Of a stretch of DNA of 25,851 bases, positions 2,726 through 22,775 are shown one piece after another. Below the pieces are notes generated by a model that saw only the letters and a program-made list of their open reading frames with translations, ran no database searches and was not told the DNA's origin. The stretch lies in the UHGV virus genome UHGV-0280754; one strand, written 5' to 3'. Each line of letters begins with the position of its first letter. The first letter of the stretch is position 1. The translations under genes and the position numbers were made by a program. Source of the DNA: a virus.

Positions 2726-3049
2726 ATGAAGATGCCAGAAAAACATGACCTGTTAGCCGCCATTCTCGCGGCAAAGGAACAAGGCATCGGGGCAATCCTT
2801 GCGTTTGCAATGGCGTACCTTCGCGGCAGATATAATGGCGGTGCGTTTACAAAAACAGTAATCGACGCAACGATGTGCGCCATTATCGCCTGGTTCATTC
2901 GTGACCTTCTCGACTTCGCCGGACTAAGTAGCAATCTCGCTTATATAACGAGCGTGTTCATCGGCTACATCGGTACTGACTCGATTGGTTCGCTTATCAA
3001 ACGCTTCGCTGCTAAAAAAGCCGGAGTAGAAGATGGTGGAAATCAATAA
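2726..3049 (+). CDS. S: Holin S (107 aa) with dual-start Met1-Lys2-Met3 motif (holin/antiholin)
   Basis: Product [25 protein letters not shown]... recognised as lambda S; hydrophobic helices; CCCC-TTATT-GGGG hairpin just upstream of the start codons, consistent with the sdi-type structure of lambda S. Confidence 0.95.
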
Positions 3050-3509
3050 TCAACGTAAGGCGTTCCTCGATATGCTGGCGTGGTCGGAGGGAACTGATAA
3101 CGGACGTCAGAAAACCAAAAATAATGGTTATGACGTCATTGTAGGCGGAGAGCTATTCACTGATTACTCCGATCACCCTCGCAAACTTGTCACGCTAAAC
3201 CCCAAACTCAAATCAACAGCCGCCGGACGTTACCAGCTTCTTTCCCGTTGGTGGGATGCCTACCGTAAGCAGCTTGGCCTGAAAGACTTCTCTCCGAAAA
3301 GCCAGGACGCTGTGGCATTGCAGCAGATTAAGGAGCGTGGCGCTTTGCCGATGATTGATCGTGGTGATATTCGTCAGGCAATTGACCGTTGCAGCAATAT
3401 CTGGGCTTCACTGCCGGGCGCTGGTTATGGTCAGTTCGAGCATAAGGCTGACAGCCTGATTGCAAAATTCAAAGAGGCTGGCGGAACGGTCAGAGAGATT
3501 GAGGTATGA
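3033..3509 (+). CDS. R: Endolysin R (lytic transglycosylase, 158 aa)
   Basis: Product [24 protein letters not shown]... recognised as lambda R; start overlaps the end of S as in lambda. Confidence 0.95.
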
Positions 3510-3943
3510 GCAGAGTCACCGCGATTATCTCCGCTCTGGTTATCTGCATCATCGTCTGTCTGTCATGGGCTGTTAATCATTACCGTGATAACGCCATTAC
3601 CTATAAAGAACAGCGCGATAAAGCCACATCCATCATCGCTGACATGCAGAAGCGTCAACGTGATGTAGCAGAACTCGACGCCAGATACACAAAGGAGCTT
3701 GCTGATGCTAACGCGACTATCGAAAGTCTCCGTGCTGATGTTTCTGCTGGTCGTAAGCGCCTGCAAGTCGCCGCCACCTGTGCAAAGTCAACGACCGGAG
3801 CCAGCAGCATGGGCGATGGAGAAAGCCCAAGACTTACAGCAGATGCTGAACTCAATTATTACCGTCTCCGAAGTGGAATCGACAGGATAACCGCGCAGGT
3901 TAACTACCTGCAGGAGTACATCAGGACGCAATGCCTTCGATGA
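3506..3943 (+). CDS. Rz: Rz i-spanin (145 aa)
   Basis: N-terminal transmembrane helix ([18 protein letters not shown]) then coiled-coil periplasmic domain; the N-terminal ~35 residues match lambda Rz from memory, the rest diverges; ATGA overlap with R. Confidence 0.9.
3705..3890 (+). CDS. Rz1: Rz1 o-spanin lipoprotein (61 aa) embedded in the +1 frame of Rz
   Basis: AGGAG (3693-3697) 7 nt before ATG 3705; signal peptide ending in lipobox LVVSAC, then proline-rich mature region; the ORF-track entry 3699 begins at a TTG two codons upstream. Confidence 0.8.
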
Positions 3944-12427: not shown

Positions 12428-13846
12428 ATGCCGATTCAGCAACTTCCGCTTATGAAAGGTGTCGGCAAAGACTTTCGAAACGCCGACTATATCGACTATC
12501 TGCCAGTGAATATGTTGGCTACACCCAAAGAAATCCTGAACAGCAGCGGATATCTTCGCTCATTCCCGGGCATTGCCAAACGTTCTGATGTGAACGGTGT
12601 ATCGCGCGGAGTCGAGTACAACATGGCGCAGAATGCTGTTTATCGTGTCTGTGGTGGCAAGCTTTACAAAGGCGAAAGCGAAGTCGGTGACGTCGCCGGA
12701 AGTGGTCGCGTATCAATGGCACATGGTCGGACATCTCAGGCTGTAGGCGTTAATGGTCAACTGGTCGAGTATCGCTATGATGGCACGGTTAAAACCGTCT
12801 CAAACTGGCCTGCAGACAGCGGATTTACGCAGTATGAGTTAGGTTCTGTTCGCGACATTACGCGTTTACGTGGGCGTTATGCGTGGTCAAAAGACGGCAC
12901 TGATTCATGGTTTATCACTGACCTTGAAGACGAATCGCATCCTGACCGTTACAGCGCACAATATCGTGCCGAGTCTCAGCCGGACGGCATCATCGGTATC
13001 GGCACATGGCGAGACTTCATCGTCTGCTTTGGTTCATCGACGATTGAATATTTCTCCCTGACTGGTGCAACCACCGTTGGTGCTGCTTTGTATGTCGCAC
13101 AGCCATCACTGATGGTGCAGAAAGGCATTGCCGGGACTTACTGCAAAACGCCGTTTGCTGACTCGTATGCGTTCATCAGCAATCCGGCAACAGGTGCGCC
13201 GTCTGTATACATCATCGGCTCCGGTCAGGTATCACCAATCGCCAGCGCGAGCATTGAGAAAATACTACGCTCCTACACTGCTGATGAACTGGCTGAAGGC
13301 GTGATGGAATCGCTGCGGTTTGATGCGCATGAGTTGCTGATTATCCATCTTCCGCGCCATGTTCTCGTATACGACGCATCTTCAAGCGCCAATGGTCCGC
13401 AATGGTGTGTATTGAAAACAGGCCTGTATGACGATGTGTACCGCGCTATCGACTTCATTTACGAAGGCAATCAGATAACGTGCGGCGATAAGCTGGAATC
13501 GGTGATCGGGAAATTGCAGTTCGATATCAGCAGCCAGTACGACAAGCAACAGGAACACCTGCTGTTTACTCCGTTGTTCAAAGCGGATAACGCCAGATGC
13601 TTTGATCTGGAGGTGGAATCATCGACTGGTGTTGCGCAGTATGCTGACCGCCTGTTCCTCTCTGCAACCACTGACGGCATAAATTACGGTCGTGAGCAGA
13701 TGATTGAGCAGAATGAACCGTTCGTTTACGACAAACGCGTTTTGTGGAAGAAAGTAGGGCGCATCAGGAAAAACATTGGCTTCAAATTGCGCGTTATCAC
13801 TAAGTCACCTGTCACTCTGTCTGGCTGCCAGATAAGGATTGAGTAA
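12428..13846 (+). CDS. gp10-like tail hub / tail accessory protein (472 aa)
   Basis: Same length as P22 gp10 (472 aa, from memory) and same position between gp4 and the tail needle. Confidence 0.8.
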
Positions 13847-15707: not shown

Positions 15708-17057
15708 ATGGCTACGTGGCAACAGGGTATTAATTCTGGTGGTTTTCTGGCTGGCATTGGTACGCAAAATGAGAATGCACCAAAGGCAAGCGACATTAAC
15801 GCAACGCTTGGTCTGATTCGCGAAAACAATGAACTGGCTCGATCAGGTGCAAATAACGTTGGTCTGACCGCGTTACGTGGTCTGGCTGGAGTTGCTGATA
15901 TTTACAATCAGGAACAGCAACAGAAAGCGATTAGTGCGTTCAATAAGGTTCACGCTGATGCATGGGCTTCTGGTGATACATCGGGACTATTTAAGTTTGC
16001 CCAGGAAAATCCAGCGTTTGTTGCACAGGCACAACAGGCGTTTTCCGGTCTTAATGAGCAGCAACGCAACGATATGGGAGATTTAGCCATGAGGGCTAAC
16101 GTCGCTCTTTCTCAGGGACCGGAAGCCTACAGTAAATTCATTACTGACAACAAGGACAGGTTAAATCGCGTGGGCGCGAATGCTGACTGGATGATTCAGA
16201 CAGGTATCCAGAATCCAGAGCAGCTATCACACATGCTGACTACTATGTCTCTCGGTGCGCTTGGACCAGAAAAGGCGTTTGCTGTTCAGGACAAGATGGT
16301 TGGTCGCCAGCAGGAGCAGCAAAGAATTAACGAAACCATTCGCAATAATGACATGACGAATGCGAGGGCTATTAGGGGGCAGGATCTTTCCTATAAGGCT
16401 CAAATGGCAAGACTGAATCACGACAAGTATGTGTTTAAGCAGTCACAGGCGGCCCTTGAAAGAGCAGGACAACTTCAGGATATGGATGTTTTGTCTCTTA
16501 ACTCACAGATAGCAGCGACGGGAATTGATCCTCTAACCGGTAAAGCTGCAACGTCAGCCAGAATGTCTCAGGCTAAGAGATGGCTTGATGGCAACAATAA
16601 TTACAACAATGCGTTGATTACTGGTGAGCGAGGGATAGAGAAAATAGATTCTTTGCTTGGTAAGAAGGATCTTGAAGGTATCGGTCGCTTCGAAGGAAGA
16701 AATATAGATGGCTTCACAAGTGCTGAAGGGCTTGCAAACCGTAATGCGATAGAAGAATTAAAGTCGGGTGCGTTTGTCCAGAACGTGCAGACTATGCGAG
16801 GTATGGGTAGCCTCTCCAATGCTGAAGGACAAAAACTGGAAAACCTTATCGCGAAACTCGATATAACACAGCCTGAAGAGGTCGTCAGAAAACAGTTATC
16901 TGAAATCCGATCGCAATATTCTGTATTTCAAAAGGTTGCAGCAAGGGAGGCTGAATCAATGGGATATAGTTCATCAGGTTATGACACATATGTTAGTGAG
17001 CGAAAATCAGGAAGCGACAGCAATAAGTCCGGTTTCTCGTCTTTATGGGGTGATTAA
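15708..17057 (+). CDS. gp20-like ejection protein (449 aa)
   Basis: Position and size comparable to P22 gp20; low-complexity Gly/Ala/Gln-rich composition typical of ejection proteins. Confidence 0.7.
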
Positions 17058-19225
17058 TGGCTAAAGCATGGAAAGATGTTATCGCTTCTCCACAGTATCA
17101 GGCGTTAACTGAAGAACAGAAAGCACAGGCTCAAGCGCAATATTTTGATGAGGTTGTTGCCCCTAAGGCTGGTGACAAATGGGCTGAAGCAAGAGATCAG
17201 TTTTATGCAGCATACCCTCCGCCTCAGCAGCAGAAAGAAGAACCATCATTGATGCAACAAGCTGGTGATTGGCTCACAGGTGGTCAAAGTGCAGGGCAAA
17301 TTGCAGAACAGGCTGGTCGTGGTCTGGTAAACATACCATTTGACGTATTGCAGGGTGGCGCAAGTCTGATTAATGCAATCAGCCAGGGGCTTGGCGGCCC
17401 CAAGGTTTTGGATGATGTTTATCGCCCTGTCGATCGACCGACAGACCCTTGGGCGCAAGCCGGTGAAACATTTGGTGGGTATCTCCTGCCAATTGGCACA
17501 GCGGCAAAAGTTGCTGGAGCGCCAGCAAAGCTCGCAGGAGACATCGGTTCCGCAGGAAACATGATTGCAGGTTCTCTTGCTGATGCTGCAAATCAGGAGG
17601 GCGACTTTGCACAAAATGCTGCCATTAACGGTGGTATCAATATTGGTGCTCAGGGGATACTTTCTGGGGCTGGAAGGATCTTAACCTCTAAATCACCTCA
17701 AGTTCTTGGTGGCGGGGCAATAAATTCCGCTGCTGATGTTTCGAAAATGGCAAAGTCTGGTACAGGAAGAGAGATTATTGCCAGACAGTCAGCTAATGTG
17801 TCAGACGAAATAGCAAAAGCAGCAGATACTGCTGGAATAGATATCAACGCATTAACTCCTGGCATGAGATCAGGTAGTCGTGGTCTTGCTCAGGCGGAGG
17901 GGATTCTGGCGTCAAAGCCCGGAATTACACAGGATGCACACACCAAAGCATTCAGTGAAATAGAGTCGAAATTTAACTCAGCATTGGATGAGTTTGGGGC
18001 TGAAGCAGGAACTGCATCAGAAAAAAGTGCAGCCATAAAACAAAGGGTTTTGGCAAGTATTGATAAAATGAAAAATTCAGAAAAGGCCGCATGGGATAGC
18101 GTCCGCTCCACGATGCCTGACGCAAAGGCCAGAATGTCAAACCTGAACGCTACAATTCAGGGTGATATTTTGGCTGGCATGCCGCTAACTCCTGAGATGA
18201 AACAATTCGCATCTGCTTATGCTAAAACTGGTAAAAAAGGAATCACGTTTGATGCCATGAAGGCATGGCGAAGTAAACTTGCTGACGCAGAGCAGAAGTA
18301 TATAAGGTCTGGTGAGGCAAATACGGCAAGGCGCATGGCTGAGCTTCGTGATGCAGCAACGGAAGATATGCGCATAATGGCTCAAAATGGCGGTTTTCTT
18401 GATGACTGGCAAAAAGCTAATGATCTGTCAAAGGCAAGATTTACAGCACAAGAACAGGCTGAAGCAGCGTTTGGTAGAGACCTTGCAACTGATCAGTTGG
18501 TAACTAATGGATCTAAGGCGTTACAGGGTTCAGCAAAAAGTGGAACAGGTCAGTTCCATAAAATAATAAGCGCCCTACCTGAGTCGGAACGCGCGCCAGC
18601 AATTGCATCAATATTACAAGATGCAATGTCGCAAGGGGTACGCGGAGGTAAGTCTGAAGAGGCTGGAATTAAGCATATCGCGACTATTCTTACCCCACAA
18701 AACGTGAAGGCAATTAGTCGATATTCTCCAGAACTTGGCAGGATTACAAGTTCATACGGAGAACTTGCACGAGCAGCAACAAAGCCACTTCGATATATTG
18801 AACAGACAGGGCGATCTATGCCAGCCATTAGCACTCTTGAGAATGGCCTTCATCCAGTTTTAGAGAGCGCATTGTCTGGCGCTTTTAGAACTACTGGCAC
18901 TATCGCAGGGTTCTCTGGAGGAGGCGTTATTGGAGCAATAGCGGGTGGCGCTGCAGGTGGGGCAATTGATGCAATGGCAAAAGGAGCGATAGCGAAATTA
19001 TCCGCAACTAGAAGCGGTCGTTACGCTATTGAAAAGGCTGTTCAAGAGGCAACAAAGGCAGTTAAGGTTGGGGCAAGTGATGGTGCATTAGCGGCGGCGG
19101 AACGCAGATTTATGGCAAATAAGGCCGCCGTAAAAGCAATACGCGAGGCACTAGGAAACGAAGAGTTCCAGCGTTTAGCAAGAGCTGGAATTGTGGCATC
19201 GCTAAGCGGAATGGCACAGGAGTAA
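17057..19225 (+). CDS. gp16-like ejection protein (722 aa)
   Basis: Position after the gp20-like gene (ATGA overlap); Gly/Ala-rich with predicted amphipathic segments; longer than P22 gp16 as I remember it. Confidence 0.7.
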
Positions 19226-19555
19226 TTAGTCATCCATGGATGGATTGAGCTTATCTCGTGTTGATGTGGCAATTTTCCCAACATTTTTCAACCAAGATTT
19301 TAAGAAGGATATGTCGTCCTTAATATCATGAATATCCTCATTCTTTATACGATCAACCTTATCCTCTAAGCTCTCTATAGAACGCTCAATGCTAGACAGA
19401 GAGATTTTTAAGTCCCCTTGCTCACGTTCCAGTGAGGATTTGAGAGCACAATATTCGTTTTCTAGAATTCCTATTTTTTTTGTTAGAGAGTGCATTCGAT
19501 ACTCATACACCAAACCAGAAACGACTAATGCAGCCAACAGAAACCATTCAAGCAC
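19226..19555 (-). CDS. Small membrane-anchored coiled-coil protein (109 aa), GTG start; positional analogue of sieA
   Basis: Minus-strand ORF with AAGGAGG 5 nt upstream of GTG; N-terminal hydrophobic helix LEWFLLAALVVSGLVY then heptad-rich acidic coiled coil; its stop abuts the gp16-like stop with zero intergenic bases. Confidence 0.6.
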   Translation of the reverse strand: MLEWFLLAALVVSGLVYEYRMHSLTKKIGILENEYCALKSSLEREQGDLKISLSSIERSIESLEDKVDRIKNEDIHDIKDDISFLKSWLKNVGKIATSTRDKLNPSMDD

Positions 19556-19929
19556 ACCAACCTCCTTAGTTTTGCTCAGGATACCAGATGATACTTTATT
19601 GGTGGAGTGGTGTGTGAAAACGTGTCAACGACAAACCATCCACAACTTGGACGAATGATTTAGCAAAAAGTGCTATTTTTGGTGTTTGGTGTCATAGAAA
19701 AGTGAATAGCTCACTTTTCAACATTGCATGAAACTTGCAGGAAATGTGACATTACCTTATAGGTAACTTCGGCGAAAATGCAGTAAATGTGAAACGTAAT
19801 GGTTTAAACATGTCGCTAAAGTGGTTGTAAGTTAGCCTCCGAAGGATTGCTGATAGCTTTGTTATAGTATTAAATGACATTTGACATAGTTGGATACTTA
19901 GCTGTGGCTATCAAGATGGAGGTGTGTTC

Positions 19930-20373
19930 ATGCTTACTTGTTTTGATGTCGCCGACTACTTCCTGTCGCGGTGTGACGAGGATAGCGGTGACGCAATCTC
20001 TAATTTAAAATTACAAAAGCTTGTTTACTATGCTCAGGGTTTTTCATTGGCGTTGCTTGGCGAGCCTCTTTTTCAGAATAAGATGGAAGCTTGGATGCAT
20101 GGCCCTGTTGTCCCTGAGCTTTATCACCGTTATAAACAATATGGTAATGGTGCTATCCCTTCTCCAGAGTCTTTTGATGCTGAAAAATTCAGCGAAGAAC
20201 AGTTAGAGCTATTAGAAGAAGTCTGGGATGTTTTTGGGCAATTTTCTGCCTGGAAACTGAGGAACATGACACACGAAGAGTCACCATGGAGATCAAACTA
20301 TATTGAGGGTGTTGGTGGTTCTGAAATTAGTTCTAAGGAGATGGCAGAGTACTTTGCAACTCGGATTAACTAA
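19930..20373 (+). CDS. Panacea (DUF4065, SocA/GepA-like) domain protein (147 aa)
   Basis: GGAGGT 6 nt upstream of ATG 19930 (ORF-track entry starts at GTG 19924); motifs NLKLQKLVYYAQGF and EAWMHGPVVPELY are what I remember as hallmarks of the Panacea/COG3600 family; AT-rich relative to flanks. Confidence 0.75.
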   Translation: MLTCFDVADYFLSRCDEDSGDAISNLKLQKLVYYAQGFSLALLGEPLFQNKMEAWMHGPVVPELYHRYKQYGNGAIPSPESFDAEKFSEEQLELLEEVWDVFGQFSAWKLRNMTHEESPWRSNYIEGVGGSEISSKEMAEYFATRIN

Positions 20374-20377
20374 CGAG

Positions 20378-20797
20378 ATGGCAAGAAAATCTAAAAGGAT
20401 TATCCCCCCTGCTGAATCTACAGGTAAGTTAAAGTTAGGGCCGCAGTCAGGGGGGAATTCAGATCAAAAGAAACCGAAATTTTCATTCTGTTACATCCAA
20501 AGCTCTCACTGCATAACGAAATGCCAAAAAGATGAGAAAGCTGGCTTAGCTGATAAATTATACAGATTAAGTCAACTAACATGGGCAGATATTAAGCAGC
20601 AAGGTAGGCATAAGCTTGGATTTGAGAAGATTGCAAGGGGTGCAATTAAAGCAGGTATCCCCAGTCATATAACGGAAGACGTAGATCATTTCTTGGCTTT
20701 TAGATTTGATGATTTGAAAGCCATGGTTGGTTATCGTCTTGGATCGACATTTTTTGTTATATGGCTTGATAGAGAGTTCAACCTATACAAGCACTAA
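20378..20797 (+). CDS. Unrecognised 139-aa protein translationally coupled to the Panacea gene (candidate toxin/effector partner)
   Basis: ATG 4 nt after the Panacea stop; basic Pro/Gly-rich N-terminus (MARKSKRIIPPAESTGKLKLGPQSGG), Cys/His cluster (CYIQSSHCITKC), C-terminal GYRLGSTFFVIWLDREFNLYKH; the ORF-track start at 20303 is an out-of-frame overlap extension and was not used. Confidence 0.6.
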   Translation: MARKSKRIIPPAESTGKLKLGPQSGGNSDQKKPKFSFCYIQSSHCITKCQKDEKAGLADKLYRLSQLTWADIKQQGRHKLGFEKIARGAIKAGIPSHITEDVDHFLAFRFDDLKAMVGYRLGSTFFVIWLDREFNLYKH

Positions 20798-20825
20798 TAA
20801 AACCCACCGTCAGGTGGGTTTTTTG
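20797..20825. terminator. Bidirectional intrinsic terminator between the convergent partner gene and mnt
   Basis: A-run (20797-20800), stem AACCCACC (20801-20808) / GGTGGGTT (20813-20820), loop GTCA, T-run (20821-20825); the mnt stop codon lies inside the hairpin. Confidence 0.65.
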
Positions 20826-21061
20826 TACAAATCCTTCAGCGTATCAAACACCATCTTCCTAACAAGTTCGGACTGCTCATCAGCGATGCGTTCTGCATCG
20901 TCTCGATAGCCTGCAATCGGTGATGGTTTTGATAGCGCATCCTGAACGATTTGTAATAACTCTGAGTTCATTGACCTTCCGTTAGCCTCTGCTCTTAATT
21001 TCAATTTTTCTCTTACTTCCAAAGGCATACGGAAGTTAAAGTGCGGATCGTCTCTAGCCAT
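20810..21061 (-). CDS. mnt: Mnt repressor (ribbon-helix-helix, 83 aa)
   Basis: Product MARDDPHFNFRMPLEVREKLKLRAEANGRSMNSELLQIVQDALSKPSP... matches P22 Mnt nearly residue for residue as I recall it; same length. Confidence 0.92.
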   Translation of the reverse strand: MARDDPHFNFRMPLEVREKLKLRAEANGRSMNSELLQIVQDALSKPSPIAGYRDDAERIADEQSELVRKMVFDTLKDLYKKPT

Positions 21062-21084: not shown

Positions 21085-21342
21085 CTAACTTTCGTCTTTA
21101 TTGTTGCTATACATGCATTTCAACTTCTCAACATCATGTTCAAGATCTATCAATCGTGATGCTATAGTTGCAAGGTCTAGTGCTTGAATGTGTTTATTTT
21201 TTTCGGTCCATGCTTCAAGTGCCGCGACCATCTCAGCATTTAATGAACGAGAATTAGCCTCAGCCAGTTCAATAAGACGTTCCTTTATCTCTACAGGAAG
21301 CCTCAGATTCACTTGAGGGTTTTTGTACTTACGATCAGACAT
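21085..21342 (-). CDS. Second Mnt/Arc-family ribbon-helix-helix protein with C-terminal coiled coil (85 aa from ATG 21342; GTG 21348 also possible)
   Basis: RHH signature NLRLPVEIKERLIELAEANSRSLNAEMVAAL; AGGA 7 nt upstream of the ATG on the minus strand; directly upstream of and co-oriented with mnt (23-bp gap). Confidence 0.75.
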   Translation of the reverse strand: MSDRKYKNPQVNLRLPVEIKERLIELAEANSRSLNAEMVAALEAWTEKNKHIQALDLATIASRLIDLEHDVEKLKCMYSNNKDES

Positions 21343-21388
21343 CGGCACATCCTGAATAATTTTTTACCACAGGATATGTAGGTATCTA

Positions 21389-21447: not shown

Positions 21448-21588
21448 ATGAAGGTAAAAACACTGCGTATGCCAGAGAAGTTAGAAAAAATCCTTGAAGA
21501 GAAAGCAAAGGAAGAGTGTCGCTCATTTAGTGCAGAAGTAATTAAACGGGTGATGGACAGCCTGAAGAGAGAGGGGATAACGGTATGA
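21448..21588 (+). CDS. arc: Arc-like ribbon-helix-helix repressor (46 aa)
   Basis: Hand translation MKVKTLRMPEKLEKILEEKAKEECRSFSAEVIKRVMDSLKREGITV aligns with P22 Arc (…PREVLDLVRKVAEENGRSVNSEIYQRVMESFKKEGRIGA, from memory); GGAGG 5 nt upstream; below the ORF-track size cut-off. Confidence 0.8.
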   Translation: MKVKTLRMPEKLEKILEEKAKEECRSFSAEVIKRVMDSLKREGITV

Positions 21589-21788
21589 GTAAAGAATGTT
21601 GTTTCTGCGGCATTAGCGAATCAGACGCTGATCAAACATACATTTACTCTAAAGAAACAGGTCGGATGCTGTGTAGTGACTGCGTGTTGGACATCATAAG
21701 ATACAAGCATCTTGGATGTTCTGCCAGCATTAGCAATATAGGTGAAGTATATGAAGGGAAAGATATAACTGATAGAGCAGAAAGTTGA
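21585..21788 (+). CDS. Small Cys-rich protein (67 aa), putative zinc-ribbon, between arc and ant
   Basis: ATGA overlap with arc stop; Cys pattern CCFCG ... CSDC; no family recognised. Confidence 0.5.
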   Translation: MSKECCFCGISESDADQTYIYSKETGRMLCSDCVLDIIRYKHLGCSASISNIGEVYEGKDITDRAES

Positions 21789-21851
21789 AGCCCCAACTGC
21801 GGTAACAGTCAGGGCTTCGGTATCGTAAAACCACGCATAGGAATTAACGAC
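21778..21851 (-). ncRNA. Putative sar-like small antisense RNA covering the ant ribosome-binding site and start codon
   Basis: Minus-strand promoter inside the ant 5' end: -35 TTGATA (complement of 21881-21886), 17-bp spacer, -10 TATACT (complement of 21858-21863); about 70 nt downstream on that strand lies a hairpin (21787-21818) followed by a U-rich tract; arrangement matches P22 sar (from memory). Confidence 0.4.
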
Positions 21852-22775
21852 ATGAAAAGTATAGCAACAGCAGTATCTACTATCAATGTACCATTCCACG
21901 GCGCAGAGCTTTATGTTGTCAATCACAACGGTGAGCCGTACACCCCAATGAAACCTATCGTTGAGGGAATGGGTATGGATTGGGCTTCACAGTTTACAAA
22001 GTTAAAACAAAGATTTGCTAAAGGTATTGTGGAAATCGCAATACCTTCAGTTGGCGGTGTGCAGAACATGATTTGCCTTGCTTTACGTAAACTTAATGGC
22101 TGGTTGCAAACCATCAGTCCTAACAAAGTCCGCCCTGAAATCCGCGACAATGTAATCCAGTATCAAGAAGAGTGTGACGATGTGCTATACGAGTACTGGA
22201 CTAAAGGCCATGTAGTTAACCCACGCAAAGCTAAAAAGGCGTTGCCGGGTAAAATCACCACTGAGCAGCAGGAAGCCATTAAACAACTCGTCATGAGTCG
22301 CGGTCAGTCTCTGCCAAAAGAAAAACAGGCTAAGGCGATGATCACCATGTGGTCGTCACTGAAATCCCATTTTGGATGTTCGTACAAAGAAATCAGTGAG
22401 GAGCAGTTTACCGAAGCACTGTCACTTGCAGCTCGAGTTCCACTTGAAGGTGAGTTCATTGGCAAACAAGAGAAGAAAACCGACGAGCTTTCTGCAAAAG
22501 AAGCAAACAGCCTTGTATGGTTATGGGATTATGCCAACCGCTCACAGGCATTATTCCGCGAACTGTATCCGGCGCTAAAACAAATTCAATCGAACTATTC
22601 CGGCAGATGCTACGACTACGGTCATGAATTCTCGTATGTTATCGGAATGGCGAGAGATGTTTTAATTAATCACACACGAGATGTTGATATCAATGAGCCA
22701 GACGGACCAACGAATCTTTCCGCATGGATGAGACTTAAGAATAAAGAATTACCTCCTTCAGTACATAACTACTGA
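21852..22775 (+). CDS. ant: Antirepressor Ant (307 aa)
   Basis: Position after arc and before the tailspike as in the P22 immI region; size close to P22 Ant; N-terminal region resembles the P22 antirepressor N-terminal domain from memory. Confidence 0.8.
   Translation: MKSIATAVSTINVPFHGAELYVVNHNGEPYTPMKPIVEGMGMDWASQFTKLKQRFAKGIVEIAIPSVGGVQNMICLALRKLNGWLQTISPNKVRPEIRDNVIQYQEECDDVLYEYWTKGHVVNPRKAKKALPGKITTEQQEAIKQLVMSRGQSLPKEKQAKAMITMWSSLKSHFGCSYKEISEEQFTEALSLAARVPLEGEFIGKQEKKTDELSAKEANSLVWLWDYANRSQALFRELYPALKQIQSNYSGRCYDYGHEFSYVIGMARDVLINHTRDVDINEPDGPTNLSAWMRLKNKELPPSVHNY

What the first reader, a model, noticed from the sequence alone, without database searches (positions are those of the whole stretch)
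19226..19555. Leftward small membrane-anchored coiled-coil protein where P22-like phages carry sieA
A minus-strand gene with a strong SD (AAGGAGG) and GTG start encodes one N-terminal transmembrane helix followed by an acidic heptad-repeat coiled coil. It sits immediately after the last ejection gene, with its stop codon abutting the gp16-like stop and no terminator between them, so late transcription would run antisense through it. Position and orientation match sieA of P22, but the protein is shorter and I do not recognise it as SieA. It could be a distinct superinfection-exclusion or membrane-acting immunity factor expressed in the lysogen.
Basis: partly seen in the sequence, partly recalled or inferred. 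Interest (0 to 1): 0.5.

Follow-up and report, generated by a model that had tools for sequence, protein, structure and literature searches.

The report
hkcB cassette in the sieA slot
This small membrane-anchored coiled-coil gene is the long-catalogued but uncharacterised hkcB of phage HK620. It sits behind the same short leader sequence as the P22 exclusion gene sieA, so it is a good untested candidate for blocking infection by rival phages.

Summary

**What it is**
- It is not new: it is 98% identical to HK620 HkcB (PHROG 5962, unknown function since 2001).
- The family is tiny and confined to P22-like prophages.
- It is under purifying selection (dN/dS 0.1-0.4).
- It always lies stop-to-stop against one gp16 ejection-protein family.
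- It is not a SieA homologue: no sequence similarity, one hydrophobic segment instead of three or more, and no SieA motif.

**The cassette slot**
- hkcB starts at the same GTG behind the same ~30-nt leader as P22 sieA (28 of 30 bases identical).
- In HK620, 83 of the 85 upstream bases match the P22 fragment that drives functional sieA.
- The exact 33-nt leader precedes 12 unrelated gene families in viral contigs. Eleven of them carry a transmembrane segment or signal peptide, and one is SieA.

**Verdict**
- Charge distribution predicts N-out/C-in topology, so the coiled coil is probably cytoplasmic.
- Best reading (about 0.45): a prophage-expressed inner-membrane factor interchangeable with SieA that blocks phage DNA entry. 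This is inferred and untested.
- No paper held in the library assigns HkcB a function.

The parts
19226..19555 (-). hkcB coding sequence (109 aa, GTG start, TAA stop)
   Evidence: ORF list and sequence. 98.2% identical to HK620 HkcB by tblastn. phrog_5962 at E 1.9e-61 over the full length. dN/dS 0.11-0.41 between subtypes.
19505..19555 (-). Codons 1-17: N-terminal hydrophobic membrane anchor (MLEWFLLAALVVSGLVY)
   Evidence: Kyte-Doolittle 1.94 over 17 aa and 2.16 over 15 aa. No K/R before it and 3 K/R in the 15 residues after it, so N-out/C-in is predicted. An equivalent hydrophobic N-terminus is present in every subtype and in the distant homologues P0030 and P0032.
19247..19486 (-). Codons 24-103: acidic heptad-repeat helix (predicted coiled coil)
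   Evidence: Heptad scan. AlphaFold2 single helix 2-103, pLDDT 85.5. A PDB profile search hits only designed or generic coiled coils.
19277..19294 (-). Codons 88-93, W-L-K-N-V-G: the family's invariant core, inside an amphipathic, net-positive C-terminal helix (residues 82-99)
   Evidence: W88, N91, V92 and G93 are invariant in an alignment that reaches 26% identity. The C-terminal third has the lowest dN/dS, 0.11-0.23 against the window copy. Hydrophobic moment is about 0.5 and charge +3.
19553..19585 (-). 33-nt leader GGTATCCTGAGCAAAACTAAGGAGGTTGGTGTG (5' UTR, SD at 19567-19561, GTG start), shared with P22 sieA and other cassette families
   Evidence: 28 of the 30 bases before the start codon are identical to P22. 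The exact pattern was found in at least 120 viral contigs, ahead of 12 unrelated ORF families.
19588..19618 (-). Candidate weak sigma-70 promoter: TTCACA (19618-19613), 19-nt spacer, TATCAT (19593-19588)
   Evidence: My own scan of upstream classes. It occupies the same position relative to the leader as the annotated P22 PsieA. The tool's stricter scan, with 16-18 nt spacers, did not call it. This part is inferred only.
19234..19243 (-). CCATCCATGG, the 3' boundary motif of the cassette slot, here inside the last codons (N-P-S-M-D)
   Evidence: The motif follows the stop codon within 0-6 nt in 7 other cassette families. In L190 the same nucleotides are read in a different frame. The window has 2 copies against 0.09 expected by chance.
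17057..19225 (+). Convergent gp16-like ejection (DNA transfer) protein gene. Its C-terminal tail ...[12 protein letters not shown] accompanies every intact hkcB locus examined.
   Evidence: Annotated as a DNA transfer protein. The C-terminal tail is shared by 57 of the 59 hkcB loci that gave a result and by 26 of 28 in the leader set. The exceptions are rearranged loci. The tail is also homologous in the distant homologues' loci.

Best explanation
The gene is hkcB. It is one of at least a dozen interchangeable cassettes that P22-like phages carry in the leftward slot right after the last ejection gene, which is the slot P22 fills with sieA.

**Shown**
- It is a conserved coding gene.
- It uses the same leader, ribosome-binding site and GTG start as sieA.
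- It is predicted to be a single-pass membrane protein followed by a long acidic helix with a conserved amphipathic C-terminal end.
- It is always found next to one gp16 family.

**Inferred**
- It is transcribed leftward from a weak constitutive promoter, or from an upstream mnt operon in some phages, while the prophage is repressed.
- It inserts in the inner membrane N-out/C-in and oligomerises through its cytoplasmic coiled coil.
- It interferes with the gp16/gp20 DNA-delivery conduit of superinfecting P22-like phages at the inner membrane, so that their DNA does not enter.
- This would make it a functional analogue of SieA, not a homologue.
For: **Same slot and signals as sieA**
- P22 sieA, HK620 hkcB and this gene share ...GGTATCCTGnnCAAAACTAAGGAGGTTGGTGTG ending in the start codon.
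- In HK620, 83 of the 85 upstream bases equal the P22 fragment. PMC10883804 shows that this fragment gives functional single-copy sieA expression.

**Guilt by position**
- The exact leader precedes 118 complete ORFs in 12 unrelated families.
- Eleven of those families have a transmembrane segment or signal peptide. One is SieA, an experimentally proven inner-membrane exclusion protein (PMC10883804).

**Expression context**
- The gene is transcribed against the late operon.
- In CUS-3 and in the 35%-identical homologue in L190 it lies downstream of, and co-oriented with, mnt-like repressor genes. Mnt is the maintenance-of-lysogeny repressor in P22.

**Other support**
- Membrane anchor plus coiled coil.
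- One-sided linkage: every intact hkcB locus has the HK620/CUS-3/epsilon34-type gp16, 65-95% identical overall. This holds for homologues at 35% and 26% identity in hosts of different GC content. The same gp16 tail also occurs with other cassettes or with none.
- SieA-escape mutations map to gp16 and gp20 (PMC10883804).
- Never found together with SieA: none of the 62 hkcB loci contains the SieA motif.
- Purifying selection.
Against: - No experiment and no homology links HkcB to exclusion. It has no significant match in Pfam, NCBIfam, PADLOC or PDB, its only strong PHROG match is a family of unknown function, and BFVD gives nothing.
- The slot also holds a soluble 140-aa protein, so position alone does not fix the function.
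- The promoter in this window is only a weak consensus match with a 19-nt spacer. The standard scan did not call it.
- The linkage to gp16 may be no more than physical adjacency, or dependence on 3'-end signals inside gene 16.
- If the coiled coil is cytoplasmic, it cannot touch the periplasmic gp20 tube. It would have to act on the cytoplasmic face of the gp16 channel, for which there is no precedent.
- The topology rests on a charge count, not on a dedicated predictor.
Confidence: 0.45

Rival explanations
1. HkcB is a prophage-expressed membrane protein with a different target. Candidates are abortive-infection or defence activity against unrelated phages, or modulation of host envelope or division physiology, in the way small bitopic coiled-coil proteins such as PspB or YhcB act. 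It would not block P22-like DNA entry.
For: - The slot is part of the variable 'ant moron' and carries other accessory cargo, such as the Panacea/SocA-like module next door (PMC2629481).
- The predicted N-out/C-in topology puts almost all of the protein in the cytoplasm.
- The cassette families are structurally heterogeneous.
Against: - No PADLOC or Pfam match. The DpdH hit, at E 0.002 and 16 bits, covers only the transmembrane and coil regions.
- The persistent association with one gp16 family is not explained by this reading.
- The resemblance to PspB and YhcB is recalled from memory and concerns architecture only. The Pfam scan listed no such family at E<=10.
Confidence: 0.25
2. HkcB serves the phage's own cycle in connection with gp16. 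It might keep newly made gp16 from damaging the membrane, or block re-injection into the already infected or induced cell. It would then be needed mainly after induction rather than in the stable lysogen.
For: - The linkage to one gp16 family is strict and one-sided, with a 0-4 nt gap in the intact loci.
- P22 sieA itself is reported to be upregulated during induction (PMC10883804).
Against: - The gene is convergent with, and antisense to, the late transcript that makes gp16. This disfavours co-expression.
- The same gp16 family functions in phages that lack hkcB.
- P22 hybrids carrying HK620 or CUS-3 ejection genes are viable (PMC10883804). As described there, only the ejection protein genes were replaced.
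Confidence: 0.12
3. It is a lysis-related protein, either an Rz-like i-spanin or a holin/antiholin-like factor.
For: - An N-terminal anchor followed by a coiled coil is the i-spanin architecture.
- There are weak sub-threshold hits to Rz-like spanin (phrog_739, E 0.07), XhlA (E 0.047) and P2 Rz1 (E 0.052).
Against: - All of these hits are far below threshold.
- The phage has a complete lysis cassette elsewhere: holin 2726-3049, endolysin 3033-3509 and Rz-like spanin 3506-3943 (E 4e-73).
- The gene is on the opposite strand to the late operon.
- The charge distribution predicts the opposite topology to Rz.
Confidence: 0.03
4. The ORF is not functional as a protein. Its conservation would reflect DNA- or RNA-level constraints at the gene 16 boundary.
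For: - The nucleotide motif CCATCCRTGG at the 3' end is conserved across reading frames and across unrelated cassettes.
- The DNA conserved between subtypes spans the gene 16 3' end and the hkcB 3' end together.
Against: - dN/dS is 0.11-0.41 over the whole gene while synonymous sites are near saturation.
- The architecture and the W-x-x-N-V-G core are kept down to 26% identity.
- The gene has a strong SD and a conserved start.
Confidence: 0.03

Closest known systems
HkcB of coliphage HK620 (NP_112088; PHROG 5962). Homologues are epsilon34 gp14, CUS-3 hkcB and a SEN22 ORF.
   Same: It is the same protein family, 98% identical to the HK620 copy. The position is the same, convergent and stop-to-stop with gene 16, and the leader is the same.
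   Different: Nothing essential differs. In this window the sequence upstream of the leader is a Panacea/SocA-like module instead of hkcC. The family has no assigned function in any source consulted.
SieA of Salmonella phage P22 (inner-membrane superinfection exclusion protein)
   Same: - Same slot between genes 16 and 9, same orientation, same leader, SD and GTG start.
- Both are predicted or proven inner-membrane proteins.
- The two are never found together (PMC10883804).
   Different: - No sequence similarity.
- 109 aa with one short anchor and a coiled coil, against 164 aa with at least three hydrophobic segments.
- The FxRYPxEAxxFNK motif is absent.
- It is linked to a different gp16 family.
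- Exclusion activity is untested.
HK97 gp15 and other moron-encoded small inner-membrane exclusion proteins (recalled from memory; Cumby et al. 2012)
   Same: A small prophage-encoded inner-membrane protein in an independently expressed moron beside virion genes. It is proposed to block DNA entry at the inner membrane.
   Different: No homology was tested or expected. The phage type and target differ (tape measure/PtsG route against the gp16/gp20 conduit). This is an analogy only.
Lambda Rz-type i-spanins
   Same: An N-terminal membrane anchor followed by a coiled coil of similar length.
   Different: - No significant match (E 0.07).
- Opposite predicted topology.
- It lies outside the lysis cassette, and the phage has its own Rz.
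Boundary sequences of lambdoid phages (Clark et al. 2001, HK620 paper, recalled from memory; 'bsq' features in the CUS-3 record)
   Same: Short conserved sequences flank exchangeable modules. Here these are the 33-nt leader and the CCATCCRTGG motif that flank the cassette.
   Different: As I recall it, the published boundary sequences were defined in the metabolic domain. I found no description of this slot's paired boundaries or its 12 cassette families in the papers I could search.

Membership tests
HkcB / PHROG 5962 | Full-length sequence match to the family profile and to HK620 HkcB | tested here: met
   phrog_5962 at E 1.9e-61, residues 2-109 against profile 2-109 of 109. 98.2% identity to HK620 hkcB.
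HkcB / PHROG 5962 | N-terminal hydrophobic anchor, helical heptad region and the invariant W-x-x-N-V-G core | tested here: met
   Alignments A1 and A2, hydropathy and the AlphaFold2 helix.
HkcB / PHROG 5962 | Convergent with, and abutting, an HK620/CUS-3-type gp16 gene in a P22-like prophage | tested here: met
   The gap is 0 nt here and in the intact enterobacterial loci. It is 3-4 nt in the distant homologues.
SieA (P22 superinfection exclusion A, types A-C) | Sequence homology to SieA | tested here: not met
   BLASTP against P22 SieA (type A) gives no alignment at E<=100. Apart from phrog_5962, the PHROG and Pfam scans at E<=10 returned only weak matches, mostly to families of unknown function or generic coiled coils, none annotated as exclusion. 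Types B and C were not compared directly.
SieA (P22 superinfection exclusion A, types A-C) | Multi-pass inner-membrane topology | tested here: not met
   P22 SieA has hydrophobic segments near residues 9-27, 81-113 and 112-146. HkcB has one, at residues 1-17.
SieA (P22 superinfection exclusion A, types A-C) | Conserved motif FxRYPxEAxxFNK near the C-terminus (PMC10883804) | tested here: not met
   A regex finds FGRYPGEANGFNK in P22 SieA and nothing in HkcB.
SieA (P22 superinfection exclusion A, types A-C) | Leftward gene between the gene 16 and gene 9 homologues of a P22-like prophage | tested here: met
   Gene map, with the same leader and start as P22 sieA.
SieA (P22 superinfection exclusion A, types A-C) | Blocks DNA injection by P22-like phages when expressed alone | not testable with these tools
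   This needs plating, K+ efflux and lysogenisation assays.
Rz-like i-spanin | Significant profile match, and location in the lysis cassette with an Rz1 partner | tested here: not met
   phrog_739 at E 0.07 only. The lysis cassette with an Rz-like spanin (E 4e-73) is at 2726-3943.
Rz-like i-spanin | N-in/C-out topology (periplasmic coiled coil) | tested here: inconclusive
   The positive-inside count favours N-out/C-in in all subtypes. No dedicated topology predictor or experiment was available.
   Window 19585-19553 matches exactly.
   Window 19234-19243.

The most novel reading that the evidence does not exclude
The slot after gene 16 is a swap site, flanked by a conserved 33-nt leader and a CCATCCRTGG 3' motif, that holds a diversified arsenal of envelope proteins. 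Each would be tuned to the ejection-protein (gp16) type that circulates with it. HkcB would be the member that, from the cytoplasmic face of the inner membrane, blocks conduits built from HK620/CUS-3/epsilon34-type gp16. That gp16 family includes HK620's, which partly escapes SieA. It would be a mechanistically new exclusion protein: bitopic, coiled-coil and cytoplasmic.
Probability: 0.2. Interest if true: 0.65.

Novelty: new variant of a known kind. Interest (0 to 1): 0.42.

Why it matters
Only 22 of 66 sequenced P22-like phages carry sieA (PMC10883804). What the others carry in its place has not been systematically described.

The open question of how the sieA-less P22-like prophages exclude rivals therefore becomes a short, testable list.

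HkcB is the commonest entry in the sample. It is present in 154 of 5,426 complete E. coli genomes, so prophages carrying it may affect how P22-like phages plate on such strains.

If HkcB excludes phages by acting on the gp16 channel from the cytoplasmic side, it would also be a new handle on the poorly understood inner-membrane step of podophage DNA delivery.

If it does not, the finding is an ordinary, already catalogued hypothetical prophage gene.

Tried and rejected
**Homology and structure searches that gave nothing specific**
- Pfam, NCBIfam and PADLOC scans returned only sub-threshold coiled-coil or composition hits: FlaC, BicD, XhlA, the SMC-related ASRP, and DpdH at E 0.002 and 16 bits over the transmembrane and coil regions. 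I treat these as non-specific.
- A profile search of PDB returned designed coiled coils only.
- Foldseek of the single-helix model against BFVD returned no matches. A lone helix is uninformative, so other fold libraries were not tried.
- A full HMMER search of 1.84 billion cluster representatives found 12 hits. Only P0030 and P0032 are credible new distant members. The long proteins P0033-P0037 are coiled-coil noise.
- The genome-contig scan found no relatives, because it was limited by the pattern used.

**RNA and terminator checks**
- Rfam found nothing at hkcB, only sar RNA at 21783-21850.
- I looked for an intrinsic terminator for hkcB inside the gene 16 3' end. There is none within about 650 nt, and local folds are weak.

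**Ideas tested and dropped**
- The second 'transmembrane segment plus coiled coil, 109 aa' cassette family as a distant HkcB homologue: hhalign probability 9.5%, rejected.
- The 3' motif as a Mnt/Arc operator: no such sequence lies in this window's immI control region, and by my recollection of the P22 mnt operator the spacing differs. Not supported.
- HkcB subtype co-varying with the body of gp16: the HK620-type hkcB occurs with both gp16 clusters, so only the family-level link holds.

**Unavailable**
- Hofer et al. 1995 (PsieA mapping) is not held in the library.

Full report
**1.

- The minus strand of 19226-19555 carries a 109-codon ORF with a GTG start at 19555-19553.
- AAGGAGG lies at 19567-19561, five bases upstream of the GTG.
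- The TAA stop (complement of 19226-19228) touches the TAA stop of the 722-aa gp16-like gene (17057-19225, +) with no base between them.
- The protein starts with about 17 hydrophobic residues (MLEWFLLAALVVSGLVY). Kyte-Doolittle is 1.94 over 17 aa and 2.16 over 15 aa, but below 1.6 over 19 aa, so this is a short anchor.
- The remainder is acidic (net charge -4) and heptad-patterned.
- AlphaFold2 models one helix from residue 2 to 103 at mean pLDDT 85.5.
- A profile search of PDB retrieves only designed and generic coiled coils.

**2. It is the known gene hkcB**

- PHROG 5962 ('unknown function') matches end to end at E 1.9e-61.
- tblastn finds HK620 hkcB at 98% identity and vB_EcoP-611R6 at 99%. 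Epsilon34 gene 14, CUS-3 hkcB and a SEN22 ORF match at about 50%.
- In HK620 the gene is annotated 'hypothetical protein' in exactly this position.
- The epsilon34 genome paper records it as a gene of unknown function in the variable 'ant moron' between genes 16 and 9 (PMC2629481).
- Full-text searches found no paper that assigns it a function.
- The window is a P22-like (Lederbergvirus) prophage. An E. coli STEC346 prophage next to ybhB/bioA is 99.9% identical over the 951-bp hkcB region and has the same gene order.

**3. The family is real, small and narrow**

- A search of 5.8 billion proteins gave 26 clusters, from E. coli, Salmonella and Klebsiella aerogenes.
- A profile search of 1.84 billion cluster representatives gave 12 hits. 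Only two, P0030 (104 aa) and P0032 (96 aa), extend the family, and both have the same architecture.
- In an alignment reaching 26% identity the invariant residues are L31, E34, L49, E73, W88, N91, V92 and G93.
- IMG/VR yielded 62 loci. Sixty complete copies encode 28 distinct proteins in three enterobacterial subtypes.
- Between subtypes, dN/dS is 0.11-0.41 with synonymous sites near saturation. The C-terminal third is the most constrained, at 0.11-0.23 against the window copy.
- The gene occurs in 154 of 5,426 complete E. coli genomes, always annotated as hypothetical.

**4. It is not SieA, a spanin or any characterised family**

- BLASTP against P22 SieA gives no alignment at E<=100.
- SieA has at least three hydrophobic segments and the motif FGRYPGEANGFNK. 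HkcB has one segment and no such motif.
- Pfam, NCBIfam and PADLOC give only sub-threshold coiled-coil noise.
- The weak Rz-like hit (E 0.07) is not meaningful. The phage has its own holin, endolysin and Rz-like spanin at 2726-3943.

**5. Topology**

- In every subtype, and in both distant homologues, there is no K/R before the hydrophobic segment and 2-4 K/R in the 15 residues after it.
- By the positive-inside rule this is an N-out/C-in bitopic protein, so the coiled coil is probably cytoplasmic. It is an inference from a charge count, not from a dedicated predictor.
- The best-conserved stretch (residues 82-99, ISFLKSWLKNVGKIATST) is amphipathic (hydrophobic moment about 0.5) and net positive, unlike the acidic middle.

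**6. hkcB and sieA are alternative cassettes in one slot**

*Shared 5' signals*
- P22 sieA is preceded by ...CATGGTATCCTGCACAAAACTAAGGAGGTTGGTGTG.
- HK620 hkcB has ...CATGGTATCCTGCGAAAAACTAAGGAGGTTGGTGTG.
- This window has ...CATCTGGTATCCTGAGCAAAACTAAGGAGGTTGGTGTG.
- The coding sequences diverge completely from the codon after the GTG.
- The 85 bp upstream of HK620 hkcB are 83/85 identical to the 85 bp upstream of P22 sieA. That P22 fragment suffices for functional single-copy sieA expression (PMC10883804).
- In this window only the last 30 nt are shared (28/30). Further upstream lies a different module.

*What else sits behind the leader*

The 118 complete ORFs that begin at its GTG fall into 12 mutually unrelated families:

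| Family | Copies |
|---|---|
| HkcB | 29 |
| 129-aa signal-peptide protein (phage Emek gp14 type) | 24 |
| SieA | 11 |
| Two-segment membrane protein, 62 aa | 10 |
| Two-segment membrane protein, 75 aa | 9 |
| A different anchor-plus-coiled-coil protein, 109 aa (hhalign probability of homology to HkcB 9.5%) | 8 |
| Four-segment membrane protein, 116 aa | 6 |
| Signal-anchor protein, 149 aa | 5 |
| Soluble protein, 140 aa | 5 |
| Signal-peptide protein, 99 aa | 4 |
| N-terminal-anchor protein, 103-106 aa | 4 |
| Signal-peptide protein, 68 aa | 3 |

- Eleven of the twelve families have a predicted transmembrane segment or signal peptide.
- None of the 62 hkcB loci also contains the SieA motif.

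*A shared 3' boundary*
- The motif (G)CCATCC(A/G)TGG(C) follows the stop codon within 0-6 nt in seven families.
- It is degenerate after P22 sieA.
- In hkcB it lies inside the last codons, at 19234-19243.
- In the 35%-identical homologue the same nucleotides are read in another frame.

**7. Expression**

- Upstream of the leader there are at least ten different sequence classes. Most carry a -10-like T(A/T)TCAT that overlaps the start codon of a divergent gene.
- In this window the best candidate is TTCACA (19618-19613), 19 nt, TATCAT (19593-19588). It lies at the same place relative to the leader as the annotated P22 PsieA. It is weak, and the standard scan did not call it.
- In CUS-3, and in the genome carrying P0030, hkcB is instead the last gene of a co-oriented run that starts with mnt-like repressor genes. 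Mnt is the maintenance-of-lysogeny repressor in P22.
- All of these arrangements fit expression in the repressed prophage. None proves it.

**8. Linkage to gp16**

- Every intact hkcB locus has a gp16 ending ...[37 protein letters not shown].
- These gp16 proteins form one family, 65-95% identical overall. CUS-3 gp16 is 75% identical to the window's.
- They are unrelated to P22 gp16 beyond residues 64-209.
- The two distant HkcB homologues, in genomes of 55% and 42% GC, are also convergent, 3-4 nt away, with gp16 genes carrying a homologous C-terminal tail.
- The dependence is one-sided. The same gp16 tail occurs with other cassettes or with none.
- Other cassette families are likewise tied to particular gp16 tails, for example SieA with ...VRPLL(V/A)NEATRQ.
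- This could reflect mere adjacency, reliance on 3'-end signals inside gene 16, or a functional relationship.
- The last option is notable for two reasons. SieA-escape mutations map to the C-terminal regions of gp16 and gp20, and HK620 ejection proteins partly escape SieA (PMC10883804).

**9. Interpretation**

- **Best-supported reading (about 0.45).** HkcB is a prophage-expressed inner-membrane protein that is interchangeable with SieA and interferes with DNA delivery by superinfecting P22-like phages.
  - Shown: gene identity, conservation, shared expression signals, the envelope bias of the slot, and the gp16 linkage.
  - Inferred: expression in the lysogen, topology, oligomerisation and the exclusion activity itself.
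- **Rivals.**
  - A different prophage-conferred membrane function (0.25).
  - A role in the phage's own cycle linked to gp16 (0.12).
  - A lysis role (0.03).
  - A non-protein constraint (0.03).

**10. Novelty**

- The gene itself is already catalogued.
- If it acts as proposed, it would be a new, non-homologous variant of a known kind of system, prophage superinfection exclusion at the inner membrane.
- I did not find the shared leader, start codon and 3' motif, or the list of twelve cassette families, described in the papers I could search. Clark et al. (2001) proposed conserved 'boundary sequences' for lambdoid modules (my recollection), and the CUS-3 record annotates 'bsq' features nearby.
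- Interest is moderate. The finding turns a vague 'hypothetical protein' into a specific experiment that can be run with existing strains. No surprising biology has been demonstrated yet.

Noticed in passing
window 19234-19243 and 2062-2071; P22 (L008) 13323-13332 and 37821-37830: The motif (G)CCATCC(A/G)TGG(C) is an imperfect palindrome. It marks the 3' end of most cassette families in the sieA slot. A second copy in the same orientation lies 11 nt after the stop of the Q-like gene 23, just upstream of the late promoter, both here and in P22. The window has 2 copies against 0.09 expected by chance. Its function is unknown.
   Followed up: partly
IMG/VR loci L071-L189: Twelve unrelated ORF families start at the GTG of the same 33-nt leader, and 11 are predicted envelope proteins. 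Each family is tied to a particular gp16 C-terminal tail. L137 carries two leader-cassette units in tandem.
   Followed up: partly
window 19924-20373 (+) and 20303-20797 (+): A Panacea/DUF4065 (SocA-like antitoxin) gene (NCBIfam E 1.5e-19) is followed by an overlapping ORF in phrog_8366 with a weak PADLOC NsnC hit (E 7e-6). This is probably a PanA-type toxin-antitoxin or defence pair carried in the ant moron. The same module occurs in phages Emek and phiv205-1.
   Followed up: partly
window 21783-21850 (-): sar antisense RNA (Rfam RF00262, 85.7 bits, E 7e-18) sits upstream of the ant-like gene at 21852-22775. Three Arc/Mnt-family genes lie at 20810-21061 (-), 21085-21348 (-) and 21448-21588 (+). 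The immI region appears intact.
   Followed up: no
window 19588-19617 (+): A 9-codon ORF (MILYWWSGV*) starts at the ATG that overlaps the candidate -10 element. It looks like the remnant of the divergent gene (hkcC in HK620 and P22) whose SD (AGGA) lies in the shared leader. The leader therefore serves translation starts in both directions.
   Followed up: partly
window 19440-19468 (+), inside hkcB antisense: A promoter-like site, TTGAGA-17-TAGAAT (10 of 12 matches), points rightward towards the Panacea module. Such matches are expected by chance in this AT-rich stretch: 2 were found against 2.7 expected.
   Followed up: no
CUS-3 locus L193 3822-5981 against window 17057-19225: CUS-3 gp16 is 75% identical to this window's gp16, which is itself 95% identical to HK620 gp16. 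PMC10883804 states that the CUS-3 and HK620 gp16 proteins are only 26% identical. The discrepancy bears on that paper's argument about which protein mediates partial SieA escape.
   Followed up: partly
proteins P0022 and P0023: These are chimeric proteins. An unrelated N-terminal half with no obvious hydrophobic segment is fused to the conserved C-terminal 44 residues of HkcB (VDRIKNEDIH...NPSMDD). This shows recombination inside hkcB that leaves the C-terminal module attached to gene 16.
   Followed up: no
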